Program-made: the position numbers and the translations under genes
Source of the DNA: Escherichia phage BEBK14
Reading direction: 5' to 3' (one strand)
Sequence record: MN158214.1
DNA: 50,853 bases
Shown here: positions 336-24,652 of the stretch, piece by piece
Layout: each line of letters opens with the position of its first letter
Position numbering within the stretch: position 1 is the stretch's first letter
The notes under the pieces: generated by a model
Told to the model about the DNA's origin: nothing
Databases searched by the model: none
What the model saw: the letters and a program-made list of their open reading frames with translations, nothing else

Positions 336-1454
336 TTATTTCTCTGCCATCTCAGGATAAAACATAAATCTTCCGATTTCGCCGTGTTCTTTGTCGTAAA
401 TGATAACCGCAGCACGGCGACGGGAACGCCAACCGCCTCGCGCGGCGTATGCGTCTTTAGCTGCCATCGTGCTATGTACTTCAACAATGCCGAGCGATGT
501 TTCTGTTACAGTCTGATGATGAAAATGCCCTACGTGCGCATACATCGTTTTTGAGTTGCCGAAGTCCTCCCGCCAGTCTGCCGCGCACATCATTAGCAAT
601 GTTTCCGGCTTGCGGACGGTGTGACCGTGATGATATGCAAGGAAGGTTTTTCCGTACTGCGTATGGTGAACCACTCGCGGCGATACATCAACGTAAACGC
701 GCGGCTCTTTTTCATATGCCGCCGCCATAGCTGCACGTAACCAGATCATGCCGCTTTGGTCATGGTTTCCCTCAATTATCTGGATCTCTACTTCTTTGTG
801 TTTTTTGAGCATCAACTCAATGGCACGACGGACGGCGCGGATTGCCACGTAAACCAATTTTGCGTATCGGCTATCTTGATCCAGGACGTGACCGCTTGCA
901 GGCGTTACTGCTTCCAGGCCGTCACTATGAAGCATGTCACCCCCAATCAGTAGCACAGCTTTCTCGCTGAACGGTGCACAGGCCACAGCATAATCGAAAA
1001 AGTCATTCATTACTTTCTCAGCCGTGGAAGTATCCCAATTCTCGCCGCATTCGTGTTTGTGCGCCATAGCTCCCAGGTGCATATCAAAAACGGGGTAAAG
1101 GGCAAGGCTTTCGCTGTATTCGCTCGCTTCTTCCGGTGTCGGATCTACTCGCGGCAATTCTTCGGTAAAAGCGTCCATAGCTGCACGCATCAACGCTTCC
1201 AGTTGCTCTTTGTCCTTACTGGTCTTTGTCCATTTGACGATCACGTTACCTTCTTTGTCGGTCATGACCGATTCACCGTGAACACCAAAACCAGGAGTTC
1301 CGATGGTTGATATTTTACCCTGTTTTGCCAGTCGTGCCGCTCGGCGCTCGACGCTACGAACGTTAAGGCCGTATTCCTCAGCAATCTGACGATAGCTCTT
1401 ACCCTTTAATCGCTCATGCGTGAATTGCTCGTCCGTTATCTTGCTCTGACTCAT
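336..1454 (-). CDS. HTH domain + calcineurin-like metallophosphoesterase
   Basis: N-terminal HTH-like segment (SYRQIAEEYGLNVRSVERR); metallophosphatase-like motifs GDMLHSDG, GNHD, HHGH in translation. Confidence 0.55.
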   Translation of the reverse strand: MSQSKITDEQFTHERLKGKSYRQIAEEYGLNVRSVERRAARLAKQGKISTIGTPGFGVHGESVMTDKEGNVIVKWTKTSKDKEQLEALMRAAMDAFTEELPRVDPTPEEASEYSESLALYPVFDMHLGAMAHKHECGENWDTSTAEKVMNDFFDYAVACAPFSEKAVLLIGGDMLHSDGLEAVTPASGHVLDQDSRYAKLVYVAIRAVRRAIELMLKKHKEVEIQIIEGNHDQSGMIWLRAAMAAAYEKEPRVYVDVSPRVVHHTQYGKTFLAYHHGHTVRKPETLLMMCAADWREDFGNSKTMYAHVGHFHHQTVTETSLGIVEVHSTMAAKDAYAARGGWRSRRRAAVIIYDKEHGEIGRFMFYPEMAEK

Positions 1455-1554
1455 GATTTTTTCTCCTATTGGTGCATTACGATACTATATATGATAGCGG
1501 TCGCAATGATAACGGGTAACGGTAGAACAAACAAGCGCCACATGATAACCATCC

Positions 1555-1797
1555 TCACTTATAATATTTGCGAGGCTCTCGAATTTTAGCCATTGCCTCT
1601 TTGAAATCAATTTTTGTTGGTATGGCTGGAACTCGCACCATCTTGCGCGGCTTTTCCTTGAGGAAAGTCATTTTGCCGCCTCCGATCACGCTGATGTCTG
1701 CAATATCGAAATATTGCGCGATCTTCTTTATGTCGTCAGCCATCCCCATTTCGTTTATATGTTGCCAGACTGCTTCACGCCCTTGTTCAACTTTCAT
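1555..1797 (-). CDS. hypothetical protein
   Basis: ORF with GGAGG RBS before internal ATG (MKVEQ...). Confidence 0.4.
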   Translation of the reverse strand: MKVEQGREAVWQHINEMGMADDIKKIAQYFDIADISVIGGGKMTFLKEKPRKMVRVPAIPTKIDFKEAMAKIREPRKYYK

Positions 1798-1966
1798 GCT
1801 TATAATATACCTCCGCAAATTCTAATGGGTAGTGACCATATGCAACGCGAAGTAGAATCATTGCAGCGCCCCAATCAAGCTGCATATTGTTTTTCGTTCC
1901 ACCTTTTACCGCCTCGCGTGCTGTTTGTTGCGCCTGGTCAAATGCTTTCTTGCTATATACTACCAT
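1787..1966 (-). CDS. hypothetical protein
   Basis: ORF downstream of extended box element 1981..2042; RBS GAGGAA. Confidence 0.4.
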   Translation of the reverse strand: MVVYSKKAFDQAQQTAREAVKGGTKNNMQLDWGAAMILLRVAYGHYPLEFAEVYYKHES

Positions 1967-2025
1967 TTTCATTTCCTCATGTTCGTTTCGATGAAATAAT
2001 TATGCCCGACAAAATGCCGGGCGTT

Positions 2026-2042
2026 TTAACAAAAAGTGCTGT
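2026..2042 (-). promoter_or_regulatory. 17-bp box copy (extended form)
   Basis: followed on minus strand by hairpin, CATAAT (1999..2004) and TTTCATCGAAACGAA. Confidence 0.5.
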
Positions 2043-2299
2043 TAGTGGATCATTCCGTGCTGAAAATTCCACGAATCGACAAATTCTTGCATGTCATTTC
2101 TGATCTGTTCATGCCATTTTTCAAGCGGGAGTTTTTTTGTCTCCTCAAAGCTCATATCCAATGCGCTTGAAAATTCCCACGGATCGCAATCAATCATCTT
2201 TTTCACGTTAGGGTTTTTATCAAGCGCATCGCAAACCATAGCGCGATAAAGCAACCATTCGCCACACTCATTTAAATAAACGCTTCTTTCTTTTTGCAT
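2042..2299 (-). CDS. hypothetical protein
   Basis: 85-aa ORF, co-oriented and adjacent to neighbouring minus-strand genes. Confidence 0.4.
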   Translation of the reverse strand: MQKERSVYLNECGEWLLYRAMVCDALDKNPNVKKMIDCDPWEFSSALDMSFEETKKLPLEKWHEQIRNDMQEFVDSWNFQHGMIH

Positions 2300-20293: not shown

Positions 20294-23218
20294 TTAGCCT
20301 CGCTTGCTCATAACAAATTCGTAAACTTCGCCGCCCTGCGTACAGGAACGTTTAATCATATCGGTGAAAATCATCTTAACGCCAGTTTCTATACCTTTCG
20401 GATCGCTACCGTTGTTAATATCAACGCTAATACCGCCGATATTGAATTGCGCCGCGCCAGCATTGATGCCACCGCCGCTATAGCTGGAACCACCAACCAC
20501 GCCGCCGTTAGCATAACCGCGCATCAACTTGTAAAGGTTGCCGACTCCGATCCGCTTCGTTGCCTCCTTCGTCATGACAAATTCACCCTTGTGAACCACT
20601 CCAGCCGCTTCATATTTCCCGCCGTCGCCAGTGTAACCGCCATCAGAGAAGCCGCGAGGACGGAATGACGGAACGGGGAATGACTGACCAGATCCGCCGC
20701 CAGTTTTAGGACTTCCGCTAACCCATCCCATCGCTGCCTGAATTGCGTAGGCAATACTCAACTGCGTAATGATGTTCATAATCATTTTGATGATTGAAGA
20801 TGCGAAGTCTTTAAAACTGCTTTTTCCTGTGCTCAATAGCTCCACAAACTGATCGCTGATTCCGTTTAATGCGTTGGTCATTACGTTACCAAATTGACCG
20901 CCCAAATCCATAGCCGAATCAATCCAGTTTTTCGTAGAGCGTTCAATCCCTGCGATTGAGTTCATGCTCAACTCATCTTGCATTGCGTAGACTTCGTTGA
21001 TCTTATCAATCATCTCGGCGAGTCTTGCATCAGTAAGCTGACCGCCTTTTGCCAGCCAGTCAGTGACGATGCGTTGCCGTTCAAGCTCCCTTTGCGTCTC
21101 TCGGTCGCTCATGCCTTTTTGCTGTAGCTCAAGCGATTGAAGCGTTTCCTTTTGACGATGCAAGAATTTAATTGATGTATCCTGCAACTGGATCTGGTCG
21201 CCAAGTATAGCCCGCTGCTCTGCCAGCGAAAGGATCTTATCCTTGTTGGCAATAATGCTTTTTTCTTCGTCAGTAAGCTGGCGTTTCTGTGATGCTTCCT
21301 GCAAGACCTGGATTTTTGCTTGCTCAGTCCATAACGCCCGGCGCTGCTGGCTGATTGATGCAATGACAGTTTCGTGCTCCTTCAATACTCGCAATTGAGT
21401 CTCCAGTGCAACAATGTCTCGCTGATACTGATCCTCAATCCTGTCTCCAGCCGACACTTTGACCTTTTGAGAACGTGCTTTGTCACGCTTCGCCAGTTCT
21501 TCGGCCTCTTTCCTGATTGCTTCGCGCGTCTTCTCTGAATACTGCTGCTCTGTCGCCGCGCGTTCACGCATCATTTCAATGTAACCCATCTCGCCCTTTC
21601 TGACTCGCGCGTCGCGTTCTTCGATGGACTTCGCCAGTTCTTCGTTTTCCTTCTTGCTCTTGTCGATGATTTCCTGCTGCTGCTTGATAAATTCATCGCC
21701 AACACCGCTAAGTCCTGGGATGTTCTGCATCGCTTTAGTGGCAGAAATAACAAACTCACCGATCAGAATATCACCCTGATTAAGCAAGTAGCGAACCTGC
21801 TCAACCGTTGCCGCCACAACGTCAGTGATCAGGTTAAGCGCACCAATTGTGTGATCGCCTACCCATCCCCAGGCGTCAGAAGCCCACTTGCGCACGTCGT
21901 CCCACATCTTTTCTAACGGCGTTGCCGAATCGGCAAGGTTGGCAAGGCGTTGCTCCATTACATCGGCGAATAGCTCGGTCGCCCGTGTTACTGCCGCAGT
22001 TTTGCCGCTGGTTTTTTCAAGGTCGGCGATATAGGTTAGCTGTCCTTGTTTCAGGAAGTTAAATTCTTCGTTTAGCTTAGCCAGACCTTTGACCGGATCA
22101 TCAGCAATCTTGTTAAAGTATTCCGTAATCTTTCCGCTTGATTCGCCCGTTACCGCTGACCATTGCGCAGTCGTTTTGGTGATTGCCCTGATTTGGGTAA
22201 TCGTAAACTTACCGGATCTTGCAAGCTCGGTTGCAATGTTGCGGATACTTCCAATCGTTGCATTCGTGCTACTGTTGATGTCCTGCGCCATCTTTTCGAA
22301 TTGCGCCGCGTTAGTTCCGGCATAACCTCCAGTCAGGACTAACGCCTCATGCAAGTTTCGTTGCGAAGAGTAGGAATCATAACCCGCTTTCACCAAAGCA
22401 CCCAGGGAAACAACAAGCGCACCAACGCCAACATTTACCGGATTAAGGTACGACAACAACGCTTTGAACGTGTTAGAGATTCCACCGAATGAATCCTTAA
22501 TCTGCCCGCCCTGCTGGATTGCAACCAACCATACAGGCATACCAGAAGCAAGCGAAGTGACAACATCAGTGATCTGCGCCGGAAGCATTCTCATAGCCTG
22601 CCGATATTGTCCCATTGAGATGCCTAATTTTTGGGCTTGCTTATCCTGCGCTTTCATCTGCGAGATAAATGGCGCTGCCTCAGCACTTACCCCTAGTTGT
22701 GCGGCGCGAATCTCCAGCAATTCCTCTCTGGTTTTCCCTGCTGCCTCAGCTTGCTGTTGCAATGCAGAGATGAATTTACGCGCCTCAGCCTCTGCACGGG
22801 CTTTCTGTTTCGCTTCCTCTGCCGCTGCTCGGCCTTCTTCGGTTAATGCTTTCTTTGTGGCGATCAGCTTATTCTGCTGCGTTTCCAAGATAGCGCCAAG
22901 CTCAAAGAAAGTATCATCAGGCACTACGCCTTTTTTCCAAAGGGAATCAAGCTGTGATGCCGCTTGTCGCAACTTATCCATTTTTGCCGATGTCGGATCA
23001 ATGGAGTCCTGAATTTTTCTAAACTCCGCTCTCTGCCTGCGCAATTCCTCGGCAAGCTGTTTAGCCTGCTGTCGTGCTATTGCCTCAGTATCAACGAATC
23101 CCTCGACGCTGCTCTTTGCGTCGTCGTTGGCCTTCTTGAACTGCTGCAATGATTTAACAGCATTCGTGACCTGCGACACGTCAACGCCAAGTGTTAAGCC
23201 TGCGTATTTATCAGCCAT
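20294..23218 (-). CDS. tail tape measure protein
   Basis: 974 aa, long coiled-coil, Gly-rich C-terminal region. Confidence 0.8.
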   Translation of the reverse strand: MADKYAGLTLGVDVSQVTNAVKSLQQFKKANDDAKSSVEGFVDTEAIARQQAKQLAEELRRQRAEFRKIQDSIDPTSAKMDKLRQAASQLDSLWKKGVVPDDTFFELGAILETQQNKLIATKKALTEEGRAAAEEAKQKARAEAEARKFISALQQQAEAAGKTREELLEIRAAQLGVSAEAAPFISQMKAQDKQAQKLGISMGQYRQAMRMLPAQITDVVTSLASGMPVWLVAIQQGGQIKDSFGGISNTFKALLSYLNPVNVGVGALVVSLGALVKAGYDSYSSQRNLHEALVLTGGYAGTNAAQFEKMAQDINSSTNATIGSIRNIATELARSGKFTITQIRAITKTTAQWSAVTGESSGKITEYFNKIADDPVKGLAKLNEEFNFLKQGQLTYIADLEKTSGKTAAVTRATELFADVMEQRLANLADSATPLEKMWDDVRKWASDAWGWVGDHTIGALNLITDVVAATVEQVRYLLNQGDILIGEFVISATKAMQNIPGLSGVGDEFIKQQQEIIDKSKKENEELAKSIEERDARVRKGEMGYIEMMRERAATEQQYSEKTREAIRKEAEELAKRDKARSQKVKVSAGDRIEDQYQRDIVALETQLRVLKEHETVIASISQQRRALWTEQAKIQVLQEASQKRQLTDEEKSIIANKDKILSLAEQRAILGDQIQLQDTSIKFLHRQKETLQSLELQQKGMSDRETQRELERQRIVTDWLAKGGQLTDARLAEMIDKINEVYAMQDELSMNSIAGIERSTKNWIDSAMDLGGQFGNVMTNALNGISDQFVELLSTGKSSFKDFASSIIKMIMNIITQLSIAYAIQAAMGWVSGSPKTGGGSGQSFPVPSFRPRGFSDGGYTGDGGKYEAAGVVHKGEFVMTKEATKRIGVGNLYKLMRGYANGGVVGGSSYSGGGINAGAAQFNIGGISVDINNGSDPKGIETGVKMIFTDMIKRSCTQGGEVYEFVMSKRG

Positions 23219-23240: not shown

Positions 23241-23258
23241 AAAGCGCCCGTAGGCGCT
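23241..23258 (-). terminator. hairpin terminator candidate
   Basis: AAGCGCCCGTAGGCGCTT with A-run on plus (T-run on minus). Confidence 0.45.
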
Positions 23259-23265
23259 TTGATTG

Positions 23266-23457
23266 CTATTTTTGGTGCATCATTTCTAATGCTTTTTGTT
23301 CCATGATTCGCAAATCGTTTAAGGCCATTTCTTCATCTTCTATTTTATAGATTCTGAACAACATCGGCAAAACATTATAGTCAAATCCGTAAGCACCAGA
23401 TCCGGCGCTTCTCCACTGCGTTTGCATTGCACAAAAAACATCCCATGACTGCATCAT
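23266..23457 (-). CDS. tail assembly chaperone T-segment (likely expressed by -1 frameshift from G)
   Basis: frame is open upstream into the end of 23577..23891 in the -1 frame. Confidence 0.4.
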   Translation of the reverse strand: MMQSWDVFCAMQTQWRSAGSGAYGFDYNVLPMLFRIYKIEDEEMALNDLRIMEQKALEMMHQK

Positions 23458-23576
23458 GCTTTCATCGAAAATAACCTCCGGCGGCTCCTCGCCTTCGTAG
23501 TCGGCGCGTGTTAATCCGACCGCTTCAAGCTCTGCGTCTGTCGGTGGCTTCTGGTAAAACAGGTAAACCGCGCGCC

Positions 23577-23891
23577 TTAACCCTTTACGCGCTGACCAGC
23601 CAGAGCGCCTAAGTAGGATTGAACGAGCGCCAACGCTGACCCAGGGTAATAATCGACTAACAGTTTTGCGTTTTCGTGGTTAAATTCTTCTTCAAGATCC
23701 CAACCCGTCGCAATGTTCATGATAAAGTCGGAATCTTTGATCCCCTCTTTCCGGTAAAGCTCCTGGACTTCCGTCGCTTTCTTGTGCTTCACGGTGAAAA
23801 TGATTTTCTGTTCGCTCCCGTCAGGCATAACGAAGTTTACTGGTAGCTTGAAGTCCGGCAGTGGGCCAAGTGTTAATTTCATCTTTGCCAT
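23577..23891 (-). CDS. tail assembly chaperone (lambda G-like)
   Basis: 104 aa between major tail and tape measure genes; AAGGAG RBS. Confidence 0.5.
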   Translation of the reverse strand: MAKMKLTLGPLPDFKLPVNFVMPDGSEQKIIFTVKHKKATEVQELYRKEGIKDSDFIMNIATGWDLEEEFNHENAKLLVDYYPGSALALVQSYLGALAGQRVKG

Positions 23892-23907
23892 TTTAATTTC
23901 TCCTTAA

Positions 23908-23924
23908 ATAGCATTTTTTGTTAA
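23908..23924 (+). promoter_or_regulatory. 17-bp box copy
   Basis: between major-tail terminator and G-like gene RBS; TAGATT 22 bp away on plus strand (antisense to late genes). Confidence 0.35.
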
Positions 23925-23967
23925 AAGTCTGAATGACTTGTTTGATAGATTCTACAGGAACGAAAAA

Positions 23968-23984
23968 AGGGGCGCAATGCCCCT
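23968..23984 (-). terminator. rho-independent terminator candidate after major tail gene
   Basis: AGGGGCGCAATGCCCCT preceded by A6 on plus. Confidence 0.55.
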
Positions 23985-23989
23985 TGTAA

Positions 23990-24652
23990 TTACTGAACAT
24001 CGGAAGGAAGGAAGGTGAATCGACCTTTCAGAGAAACGGAAAGGGAAACTGTTTCCATTTCGTTGACGGTCGTCTGCGGGATCTCGTTAAACGAAAGAAC
24101 ACCAGCCCAGCAACGCATTTCTTTCGCCTTTGGAACGAACATTCGCAACGCCGTAACCTCACCTCCTTCATCAGCTTTTCGAAGCAATGGATAAATTGGA
24201 TTATCGAACTCATGCGCGAAAGTGTAGGTAAGAGATACCGCGCTTTTATATGTTGGTAGCTGCTGCTCCTGGTCGTCAGATAAACACTGATAAGTGTAAT
24301 ATTGCTGTTCGCCGCCGTCCTGTGACAGATCCTGAACGCATGGAATTTCAACCCATGAATTGATTTTCGCAAACGATGCAGTACCACCGGAAGGGAAGAT
24401 ATTCTGATCTGTAGTATCAATACCCTCAAGCGTTACGCTAGTTTCTTCGCCATTCTGCTTGACGCGAAGAACGCGATCAACCATCTTACCCCATGAGGAA
24501 GTAGTGATAATTACATAATCACCTTTCTTAAACTCAGTGCCGCCTGATGCAACTGTAAATACAGGATCTGCTGCGTTAGAAATAGCCGTTGCTTGCACAT
24601 CAGTAGCTCGATTGCTTTCAATAAAAATTTGAGAACCGTTAGGAAGGTGCAT
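23990..24652 (-). CDS. major tail protein
   Basis: 220 aa, position upstream of G/T chaperones; terminator hairpin follows. Confidence 0.65.
   Translation of the reverse strand: MHLPNGSQIFIESNRATDVQATAISNAADPVFTVASGGTEFKKGDYVIITTSSWGKMVDRVLRVKQNGEETSVTLEGIDTTDQNIFPSGGTASFAKINSWVEIPCVQDLSQDGGEQQYYTYQCLSDDQEQQLPTYKSAVSLTYTFAHEFDNPIYPLLRKADEGGEVTALRMFVPKAKEMRCWAGVLSFNEIPQTTVNEMETVSLSVSLKGRFTFLPSDVQ

What the first reader, a model, noticed from the sequence alone, without database searches (positions are those of the whole stretch)
23266..23891. Probable programmed -1 frameshift joining the G-like and T-like chaperone ORFs
The reading frame of 23266..23457 stays open upstream in the -1 frame relative to 23577..23891 across the whole intergenic stretch and into the 3' end of the G-like gene, the conserved arrangement of siphophage tail assembly chaperones. 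No canonical XXXYYYZ heptamer was identified by eye near the end of G (sequence there is CGCGTAAAGGGTTAA), so the slip site may be non-canonical.
Basis: partly seen in the sequence, partly recalled or inferred. Interest (0 to 1): 0.4.

Follow-up and report, generated by a model that had tools for sequence, protein, structure and literature searches.

The report
Phage tail chaperone G/GT frameshift site
This is the ordinary, widely conserved ribosomal -1 frameshift that lets a T1-like coliphage make a short (G) and a long (GT) tail-assembly chaperone from one message; the only twist is that this phage clade uses the slippery sequence A_AAG_GGU where nearly all its relatives use A_AAA_AAC.

Summary
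The window is Escherichia phage BabyEgg, a Warwickvirus-like member of Drexlerviridae. On the minus strand, between the tail tube gene and the tape measure gene, lie G (23891..23577, Pfam Phage_TAC_4) and a -1 frame reading frame carrying DUF1799. That frame is open from 23679 to its stop at 23266.

Its statement that there is no canonical heptamer is wrong. The sequence it quoted, CGCGTAAAGGGTTAA, contains A_AAG_GGT (23586..23580) in the correct X_XXY_YYZ phase. These are the last two sense codons of G, directly before TAA.

In 116 of 118 related loci a slip motif sits at exactly this position, and the -1 frame then runs 102-112 codons. Substitution patterns switch from G-frame to -1 frame third positions exactly at the heptamer. 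The -1 frame protein is conserved from its first codon. Whole clades have essentially no start codon there for 50-74 codons.

Published E. coli reporter data give A_AAG_GGU 0.13-1.6% frameshifting, at least as much as the family consensus A_AAA_AAC.

The predicted product is GT, 208 aa, with junction ...AGQRVKG|LRRAVY.... This is a known kind of recoding. It is not annotated in this phage's own record, and the heptamer is a rare variant. Interest is low.

The parts
23577..23891 (-). Gene G: tail assembly (tape measure) chaperone, 104 aa plus TAA stop; the product of standard decoding
   Evidence: ORF list. Pfam PF08748 Phage_TAC_4: 124.5 bits against a cut-off of 21.1, E=3.8e-36, full length. 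phrog_17368 positions 1-107. AAGGAG Shine-Dalgarno at 23905..23900, 8 nt before the ATG.
23580..23586 (-). Slippery heptamer A_AAG_GGT (X_XXY_YYZ in the G frame); codons 103-104 of G (Lys-Gly)
   Evidence: Sequence. It is the only in-phase heptamer in G. The same position carries a slip motif in 116 of 118 related loci. AAAGGGU gave 0.134/0.368/1.598 % -1 frameshifting in E. coli reporters and has an in-phase z-score of -10.05 (PMC4066793 Table S3).
23577..23579 (-). Zero-frame stop codon TAA of G, immediately 3' of the heptamer; its first two bases are bases 2-3 of the first -1 frame codon (TTA, Leu)
   Evidence: A stop directly abuts the motif in all 116 intact family loci. The first -1 frame codon is Leu in all 101 distinct sequences.
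23266..23580 (-). T segment: -1 frame coding sequence read after the slip, 104 codons plus TAG; DUF1799 domain
   Evidence: Translation. Pfam PF08809 DUF1799: 47.7 bits against a cut-off of 26. The match starts at residue 23 of the segment, 20 residues upstream of the first ATG. phrog_17368 positions 109-211, E=1.2e-56. Third-codon-position variation follows this frame from the G stop onward.
23266..23891 (-). GT fusion, complement(join(23266..23580,23580..23891)), 208 aa, junction ...LAGQRVKG|LRRAVYLFYQKPP...
   Evidence: Constructed. tblastn of this fusion covers at least 80% of the query in 1080 phage records. The exact fusion is absent from the 15-billion-protein collection, so it has never been deposited.
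23266..23457 (-). The 63-aa ATG-started ORF that GenBank records annotate as a separate gene; judged to be an artefact of gene calling (the 3' part of T)
   Evidence: The nearest GGAGG is 17 nt upstream of the ATG. This ORF truncates the DUF1799 domain. Relatives have the ORF called at 54-102 aa.
23542..23574 (-). Weak, partly degraded hairpin downstream of the slip site; a possible minor stimulator
   Evidence: -7.4 kcal/mol in the window, against -15 to -19 in many relatives and about -2 to -4 in others. The named helix is 76% paired against about 44% for slid controls. RNAalifold predicts nothing, and the single-sequence fold has z=+1.1.
23990..24652 (-). Upstream neighbour: major tail (tube) protein gene
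   Evidence: Pfam PF08813 Phage_tail_3, E=1.1e-64; phrog_584.
20294..23218 (-). Downstream neighbour: tape measure protein gene (974 aa)
   Evidence: Pfam TMP_2 and Tape_meas_lam_C; phrog_24, E=1e-259.

Best explanation
Ribosomes translating gene G mostly terminate at TAA (23579..23577) and release the 104-aa chaperone G. A small fraction, probably of the order of 0.1-2%, slip back one nucleotide on A_AAG_GGU (23586..23580). tRNA-Lys re-pairs from AAG to AAA, and tRNA-Gly re-pairs from GGU to GGG. Alternatively tRNA-Lys slips alone and GGG is then decoded afresh; both routes give the same peptide. Translation continues in the -1 frame through TTA AGG CGC... to the TAG at 23266. This yields the 208-aa GT protein, in which the DUF1799 'T' domain is appended to a complete G.

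By analogy with lambda, many copies of G and a few of GT coat the tape measure protein. The T domain recruits the tube protein, so the frameshift frequency fixes the G:GT ratio needed for tail assembly.

Shown here: the frame geometry, the in-phase heptamer, its positional conservation, the coding-register switch at the heptamer, and the domain identities. Inferred: that slippage actually occurs, its efficiency, which tRNAs slip, any stimulatory role of the adjacent stop codon or the weak hairpin, and the assembly function.
For: 1. Gene order is tube protein, then G, then T, then tape measure, with Phage_TAC_4 and DUF1799 hits above the Pfam cut-offs.
2. T is in the -1 frame and open across the gap and 100 nt into G.
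3. A_AAG_GGT is in phase and forms the last two codons of G.
4. In 116 of 118 related loci from Drexlerviridae, Dhillonvirus, ~100-kb contigs I take to be T5-like, Ralstonia phages and others, G ends with a slip motif directly before its stop. The counts are A_AAA_AAC 51, G_GGA_AAC 17, A_AAA_GUY/GCC 39, A_AAG_GUC 6 and A_AAG_GGT 3. The -1 frame then runs 102-112 codons.
5. In Dhillonvirus the -1 frame is open for only 7 nt before the stop, which pins the shift to the heptamer.
6. Among 24 distinct Tempevirinae/T1 sequences, variable columns follow G-frame position 3 upstream of the heptamer (9, 7, 18 of 18 each) and -1 frame position 3 downstream (15/39, 14/40, 38/40). Window against U136B differs at 2, 2 and 22 sites by codon position.
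7. The -1 frame protein is conserved from its first codon. Webervirus has no ATG/GTG/TTG until codon 50 (one locus has a lone TTG at codon 22), and most Dhillonvirus loci have none until codon 67-74.
8. Homologous phages U136B and KLPN1 carry annotated joins, and Hafnia phage Pocis76 has a deposited 210-aa fusion.
9. A_AAG_GGU frameshifts at 0.134/0.368/1.60 % in E. coli reporters, against 0.163/0.189/0.74 % for A_AAA_AAC, and it is strongly avoided in phase in E. coli genes, z=-10.05 (PMC4066793).
10. A3G3 is not a homopolymer run, which argues for ribosomal rather than transcriptional slippage.
Against: There is no direct protein evidence for GT in this phage or, as far as I found, in any T1-like phage. 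PMC5313236 lists experimental confirmation only for lambda, P2, L5, TM4, phiC31, HK022 and HK97.

GGU is a poor A-site slip codon according to the Sharma et al. rules. No convincing stimulator is present in the window: the fold z-score is +1.1, the hairpin is only -7.4 kcal/mol, and there is no RNAalifold consensus. The efficiency could therefore be near background.

An in-frame ATG (23457) exists, and GenBank records annotate a separate 63-aa protein.
Confidence: 0.9

Rival explanations
1. T is an independent gene translated from the ATG at 23457 into a 63-aa protein, as annotated in the BabyEgg, Jahat_MG145 and BEK12A records, and no recoding occurs.
For: An ATG-started ORF of 63 codons exists. 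Three GenBank records annotate it as a CDS.
Against: The nearest Shine-Dalgarno-like GGAGG is 17 nt upstream of the ATG. The 41 codons upstream of the ATG show a clear coding signature in this frame and are 33-39/41 identical at the protein level in Tempevirinae relatives that differ at about 22-29 of the ~119 nucleotides in this stretch (24/41 against the T1-like Sfin-2). The DUF1799 match begins 20 residues upstream of that Met. Webervirus and Dhillonvirus homologues have essentially no start codon until codon 50 to 74. Gene callers give 54-102 aa for the same ORF in relatives.
Confidence: 0.05
2. The -1 shift occurs elsewhere in the 100-nt overlap, for example at the tetramers A_AAC (23673), A_AAA (23667) or C_CCT (23646), and not at A_AAG_GGT.
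For: These Z_ZZN tetramers lie inside the open -1 frame overlap. A_AAA and C_CCU have weak activity with a strong pseudoknot (PMC4066793 Table S2).
Against: Variation upstream of the heptamer follows the G frame, not the -1 frame. The length of the -1 overlap is not conserved (7-208 nt), and in Dhillonvirus it leaves only the heptamer available. Those tetramer positions are not conserved motifs. All three have little or no activity without a stimulator.
Confidence: 0.02
3. The fusion arises by transcriptional slippage (RNA polymerase stuttering), or the split is a sequencing error or pseudogene of an originally single ORF.
For: The family consensus motif contains an A6 run that could in principle support polymerase slippage.
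Against: The window's motif, AAAGGG, has no long homopolymer. The two-frame arrangement is reproduced in more than 100 independent genomes with different motifs. BabyEgg, Jahat_MG145 and BEK12A share the identical junction. G alone is a complete Phage_TAC_4 domain ending at a stop.
Confidence: 0.02

Closest known systems
Phage lambda G/GT tail assembly chaperones (Levin, Hendrix and Casjens 1993; Xu, Hendrix and Duda 2004, 2013, 2014, as summarised in PMC5009743)
   Same: Two ORFs lie between the tube protein gene (V) and the tape measure gene (H). The second ORF is in the -1 frame without its own start. A low-level -1 ribosomal slip near the 3' end of G gives a G-plus-T fusion. tRNA-Lys is involved at the slip site.
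   Different: There is no detectable sequence similarity (best BLASTP E=7.7), and the Pfam families differ (Phage_TAC_4 and DUF1799 here). Lambda uses G_GGA_AAG with AAG in the A site, 5 codons before the G stop. Here AAG is the first (P-site) codon, GGU is the A-site codon, and the stop follows immediately.
T1-type (Drexlerviridae) tape measure chaperone frameshift as annotated in Escherichia phage U136B, Klebsiella phage KLPN1, Hafnia phage Pocis76 and Citrobacter phage Stevie (PMC4319613)
   Same: The G and T proteins are homologous. The G protein is 82% identical to U136B's, and the 208-aa fusion is about 86% identical to other Tlsvirus-like phages such as phSE-2. The slip position is the same (the last two codons of G, abutting the stop), and T has the same length.
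   Different: Those phages use A_AAA_AAC, or A_AAA_GUU in KLPN1. Many have a -15 to -19 kcal/mol hairpin 6 nt downstream. The window has A_AAG_GGU and a hairpin weakened to -7.4 kcal/mol. The join is not annotated for BabyEgg or the Warwickvirus relatives I inspected (Jahat_MG145, BEK12A).
IS1 insAB' and other low-efficiency bacterial -1 frameshift sites on weak heptamers (Sharma et al. 2014, PMC4066793)
   Same: A weak X_XXY_YYZ heptamer working at roughly the 0.1-2% level. A_AAG_GGU was measured in that study as frameshift-prone and is counter-selected in phase in E. coli genes.
   Different: The biological purpose differs (transposase against chaperone ratio). In that genomic screen the only A_AAG_GGT cluster listed was yaiS, not a phage gene.

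Membership tests
Long-tailed phage G/GT tail assembly chaperone pair with programmed -1 frameshift (Xu, Hendrix and Duda 2004) | The pair of ORFs is located between the major tail/tube protein gene and the tape measure protein gene | tested here: met
   Tube protein 24652..23990 (PF08813), G 23891..23577, T to 23266, tape measure protein 23218..20294 (PF06791, PF09718).
Long-tailed phage G/GT tail assembly chaperone pair with programmed -1 frameshift (Xu, Hendrix and Duda 2004) | The downstream ORF is in the -1 frame, overlaps the 3' end of G, and lacks its own conserved start and ribosome binding site | tested here: met
   The -1 frame is open 23679..23266. The first start codon is 41 codons after the slip and has no properly spaced SD. 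Start positions are not conserved, and starts are absent for 50-74 codons in whole clades.
Long-tailed phage G/GT tail assembly chaperone pair with programmed -1 frameshift (Xu, Hendrix and Duda 2004) | A slippery sequence in the overlap, in the zero-frame phase X_XXY_YYZ | tested here: met
   A_AAG_GGT at 23586..23580. Its activity was measured in E. coli (PMC4066793 Table S3).
Long-tailed phage G/GT tail assembly chaperone pair with programmed -1 frameshift (Xu, Hendrix and Duda 2004) | The arrangement is conserved among relatives, with protein-coding constraint continuing in the new frame from the slip site | tested here: met
   116 of 118 loci. The codon-position switch occurs at the heptamer.
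Long-tailed phage G/GT tail assembly chaperone pair with programmed -1 frameshift (Xu, Hendrix and Duda 2004) | Both G and GT proteins are made at a fixed low GT:G ratio, both are required for tail assembly, and neither is in virions | not testable with these tools
   This needs western blotting or mass spectrometry and genetics. The literature found lists no T1-like phage among the experimentally confirmed cases (PMC5313236).
Long-tailed phage G/GT tail assembly chaperone pair with programmed -1 frameshift (Xu, Hendrix and Duda 2004) | Spiral tail-assembly-chaperone fold of the G domain (Pell et al. 2013) | tested here: inconclusive
   The single-sequence AlphaFold2 model of GT had mean pLDDT 39.7 and pTM 0.27, so it was unusable for fold search. 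No PDB sequence relative was found.
Pfam Phage_TAC_4 (PF08748) + DUF1799 (PF08809) T1/T5-type chaperone family | G matches PF08748 and the -1 frame segment matches PF08809, both above the gathering thresholds | tested here: met
   124.5 bits against 21.1, and 47.7 bits against 26. phrog_17368 covers both halves as a single 213-position profile.
Pfam Phage_TAC_4 (PF08748) + DUF1799 (PF08809) T1/T5-type chaperone family | The slip motif forms the last two sense codons of G, directly followed by the stop | tested here: met
   GTA AAG GGT TAA, the same position as in 116 of 118 loci. [quoted passage not shown]
Lambda gpG / gpT protein families proper (sequence homologues of lambda G and T) | Detectable sequence similarity to lambda G or T | tested here: not met
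   BLASTP of the window's GT against lambda GT gave a best E of 7.7. The Pfam scan (E <= 0.01) returned only Phage_TAC_4 and DUF1799 for G, T and GT. The pair works like lambda G/GT but is not a sequence-level member.
Stimulator-dependent high-efficiency bacterial -1 PRF (dnaX / IS3 / IS911 type) | A stable hairpin or pseudoknot 5-9 nt downstream and/or an SD-like element upstream of the motif | tested here: inconclusive
   The window hairpin is -7.4 kcal/mol, and the 133-nt fold has z=+1.1. Relatives range from -19 to about 0 kcal/mol. The named helix is 76% paired but was derived from the consensus and overlies conserved codons. RNAalifold predicts no structure. No upstream GGAGG was seen by eye.

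The most novel reading that the evidence does not exclude
The Warwickvirus clade has swapped the family's near-universal A_AAA_AAC for A_AAG_GGU and has at the same time lost most of the downstream hairpin. This may represent natural re-tuning of the G:GT ratio through a trade-off between motif and stimulator. More generally, the invariant zero-frame stop codon directly 3' of the motif (116 of 116 intact loci, including clades with only an A_AAR tetramer and no second slippery codon) may itself be the stimulator in this family. Slow termination with the stop in the A site would then drive P-site/E-site slippage of tRNA-Lys, a 'shifty stop' used for -1 recoding.
Probability: 0.3. Interest if true: 0.35.

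Novelty: new member of a known kind. Interest (0 to 1): 0.2.

Why it matters
Mainly for annotation. The deposited records I inspected for this phage and its close relatives (BabyEgg, Jahat_MG145, BEK12A) list G and a truncated 63-aa 'T' as separate genes. BabyEgg's record mislabels them as 'tail length tape measure protein'. The real 208-aa GT protein is absent from a collection of about 15 billion protein sequences.

The family-wide tabulation has modest mechanistic interest. [quoted passage not shown] That makes it a convenient natural series for testing what sets low-level -1 frameshift efficiency in enterobacteria.

Tried and rejected
- Single-sequence AlphaFold2 model of GT: mean pLDDT 39.7, so no fold search was run.
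- PDB sequence search with GT: only a spurious hit at E=0.47.
It was replaced by three single-protein scans.
- IMG/VR exact-pattern scan for CGYGTAAAGGGTTAAGG: two hits, both unrelated chance matches with no G-like ORF. The variant is therefore seen only in GenBank Warwickvirus genomes.
- RNAalifold on 18 downstream regions: no consensus structure. The single-sequence fold of 133 nt was no better than shuffles.
- A second in-phase A_AAG_GGT at 1407(-): the -1 frame stops immediately, so it is not a recoding site.
- The review PMC5009743 gave no explicit support for stop-codon stimulation of -1 shifts, so that idea is kept as inference only.
- Two paper-tool calls failed on term syntax.

Full report
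**Identity of the window.** The 851-nt region around the finding is 100% identical to Escherichia phage BabyEgg (PP925846.1). It is 97-99% identical to MatMar, WaterSpirit, Jahat_MG145, BEK12A and BEK26, of which Jahat_MG145 and BEK12A were checked and are classified as Drexlerviridae, Tempevirinae, Warwickvirus. All genes of interest are on the minus strand.

**Checking the observation.** Reading the minus strand, G runs 23891..23577 (104 aa plus TAA) and is preceded by AAGGAG 8 nt upstream. The ATG-started ORF 23457..23266 is in the -1 frame relative to G. That frame is open without interruption from 23679 to the TAG at 23268..23266. This is 137 sense codons, spanning the 119-nt gap and the last 100 nt of G. 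By composition alone the probability is about 0.0016.

In the G frame the sequence reads CGC GTA AAG GGT TAA. This contains A_AAG_GGT (23586..23580), an X_XXY_YYZ heptamer in the correct phase. It is the only in-phase heptamer in G.

**What the proteins are.** G is a full-length Pfam Phage_TAC_4 'phage tail assembly chaperone' (124.5 bits, cut-off 21.1). The -1 frame segment is DUF1799 (47.7 bits, cut-off 26), and its match starts 20 residues upstream of the first ATG. PHROG 17368, a single 213-position profile, matches G over positions 1-107 and the -1 frame segment over positions 109-211. Fused proteins of this kind are therefore already present in phage databases. The neighbours are the tail tube protein (PF08813) upstream and the 974-aa tape measure protein (TMP_2, Tape_meas_lam_C) downstream. 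This is the classical tube, G, T, tape measure module.

**Comparative evidence.** I collected 118 related loci from GenBank phages and IMG/VR. In 116 of them G ends with a slip motif as its last two sense codons, directly followed by a stop. The -1 frame then continues for 102-112 codons, while the +1 frame closes much sooner in all but one locus (the Ralstonia phage L035).

| Last 7 nt of G | Loci | Where |
|---|---|---|
| A_AAA_AAC | 51 | most Tempevirinae, T1-like, Dhillonvirus, HK639, eiAU |
| G_GGA_AAC | 17 | ~100-kb contigs I take to be T5-like, Ralstonia phages |
| A_AAA_GUY / A_AAA_GCC | 39 | Webervirus |
| A_AAG_GUC | 6 | Rogunavirus JLA23-like |
| A_AAG_GGT | 3 | the window, its own GenBank record BabyEgg, and Jahat_MG145 |

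BEK12A also has A_AAG_GGT. The two exceptions are a broken contig and a truncated contig.

In Dhillonvirus the -1 frame opens only 7 nt before the stop, so the shift can occur only on the heptamer.

Among 24 distinct Tempevirinae/T1 sequences, variable alignment columns upstream of the heptamer follow G-frame codon position 3 (9, 7 and 18 of 18 each). Directly downstream they follow -1 frame position 3 (15/39, 14/40, 38/40). The window and U136B differ at 2, 2 and 22 sites by -1 frame codon position, with 37 of 41 amino acids identical. The coding register therefore changes exactly at the heptamer.

The -1 frame protein is conserved from its very first codon (L-[KRI]-[RE]-A...). Webervirus has no ATG/GTG/TTG in that frame until codon 50, apart from one locus with a lone TTG at codon 22. 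Most Dhillonvirus loci have none until codon 67-74. Those positions lie next to or beyond the conserved TQWR motif. A tblastn of the reconstructed 208-aa fusion covers at least 80% of the query in 1080 phage records.

**Prior annotation.** The U136B and KLPN1 records carry joined CDSs labelled as the frameshift product. Hafnia phage Pocis76 has a deposited 210-aa fusion...QRVKKLKRAVY.... [quoted passage not shown] By contrast, BabyEgg, Jahat_MG145 and BEK12A list two separate CDSs. The exact 208-aa GT of this phage is absent from a collection of about 15 billion proteins. The T ORF is called at anything from 54 to 102 aa in relatives.

**Is A_AAG_GGU a credible slip site?** Sharma et al. 2014 (PMC4066793, Table S3) measured all 64 heptamers in E. 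coli.

| Heptamer | No stimulator | IS911 stimulators | IS3 pseudoknot |
|---|---|---|---|
| A_AAG_GGU | 0.134% | 0.368% | 1.60% |
| A_AAA_AAC (family consensus) | 0.163% | 0.189% | 0.74% |
| G_GGA_AAC | 0.164% | 0.222% | 0.89% |

The in-phase z-score of A_AAG_GGU in E. coli genes is -10.05, which means strong avoidance. The window's motif is thus at least as good as what its relatives use.

GGN codons are generally poor A-site shifters. A_AAG, however, is by far the best tetramer, at 5.6% with a pseudoknot (Table S2). Slippage of tRNA-Lys alone is therefore a real alternative to tandem slippage. It is the only option in the Rogunavirus and Webervirus variants. Both routes give the same product...AGQRVK-G-LRRAVY....

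Because AAAGGG is not a homopolymer, transcriptional slippage is unlikely here.

**Stimulators.** The 133 nt from the slip site downstream fold no better than shuffled sequence (z=+1.1). Many relatives have a 9+3-bp hairpin starting 6 nt after the heptamer, at -15 to -19 kcal/mol. It is nearly absent in others (about -2 to -4) and is reduced to -7.4 kcal/mol in the window by GGGCGG to GCGCGG and CCGCC to CCACC.

The named helix is 76% paired against about 44% for slid controls, with a few double changes. However, I derived it from the consensus, and it overlies the conserved codons R-A-V...K-P-P. RNAalifold predicts no consensus structure. I regard it as an optional modulator.

The one invariant context feature is the stop codon abutting the motif. 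A stimulatory role, by pausing for release factor, is my inference and is not shown. The review PMC5009743 discusses 'shifty stops' mainly for +1 events.

**Comparison with lambda.** In lambda, G_GGA_AAG lies 5 codons before the G stop. The window's GT shows no BLASTP similarity to lambda GT (best E=7.7). The system works like lambda G/GT, whose function is summarised in PMC5009743. G and the G part of GT bind the tape measure protein, T binds the tube protein, and the ratio is about 30:1. At the sequence level, though, it belongs to the separate Phage_TAC_4/DUF1799 family.

A fold-level test failed, because the single-sequence AlphaFold2 model had pLDDT 39.7 and no PDB relative exists.

**Verdict.** The finding is real and its interpretation is essentially right. 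It is the well-known programmed -1 frameshift of siphophage tail assembly chaperones. The slip site is canonical in form (A_AAG_GGU, 23586..23580) but is a rare variant for this family. Confidence is 0.9 that GT (208 aa, complement(join(23266..23580,23580..23891))) is made by -1 ribosomal slippage at this site. No protein-level evidence exists. I rate it a new member of a known kind, with interest 0.2.

Noticed in passing
window 23967..23985 (minus strand): A terminator-like GC hairpin followed by a T-run lies between the stop of the major tail protein gene (23990) and the start of G. The HK639 record annotates a terminator at the equivalent place. It may attenuate transcription after the abundant tube protein gene.
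   Followed up: partly
window 23241..23260: The hairpin AAAGCGCC-TACG-GGCGCTTT lies between the T stop (23266) and the tape measure start (23218). The scan called it on the + strand only. On the coding strand it is followed by TTTTTTAA and looks like a terminator or attenuator. The same hairpin is present in U136B.
   Followed up: partly
L030, L038-L075 (Webervirus); L031, L076-L080 (Rogunavirus): At the family slip position these clades have A_AAA_GUY/GCC or A_AAG_GUC. These are not full heptamers, so only tRNA-Lys can re-pair. L081 has a G protein 99% identical to JLA23's but carries A_AAA_AAC, so the motif turns over at very short evolutionary distance.
   Followed up: partly
window 23578..23580 and all related loci: The first -1 frame codon after the slip is Leu in all 101 distinct sequences, because it overlaps the zero-frame stop (YUA or YUG). 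Either the stop or the Leu is constrained.
   Followed up: no
L001 (BabyEgg record PP925846.1) 1501..2235, corresponding to window 24000..23266: The GenBank annotation labels G and the 63-aa T ORF as 'tail length tape measure protein'. It also contains a 35-aa 'hypothetical protein' CDS lying over the terminator hairpin upstream of G, which is probably spurious.
   Followed up: no
window 1401..1407 (minus strand), in ORF 1484..336: A second in-phase A_AAG_GGT heptamer lies near the 5' end of a 383-codon ORF. The -1 frame hits a stop immediately, so it is a chance occurrence and not a recoding site.
   Followed up: yes
L027 (IMGVR_UViG_2706796530_000001): The G homologue is interrupted and does not end at the family slip motif. 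This is probably an assembly indel or a defective copy.
   Followed up: no
one search hit list (e.g. MG065675.1 'Campylobacter phage A118'): Twenty-one records named as Campylobacter phages carry a GT matching the window's T1-like coliphage GT; the one listed, A118, is 79% identical. The host labels look doubtful and may reflect contamination or mis-assignment.
   Followed up: no
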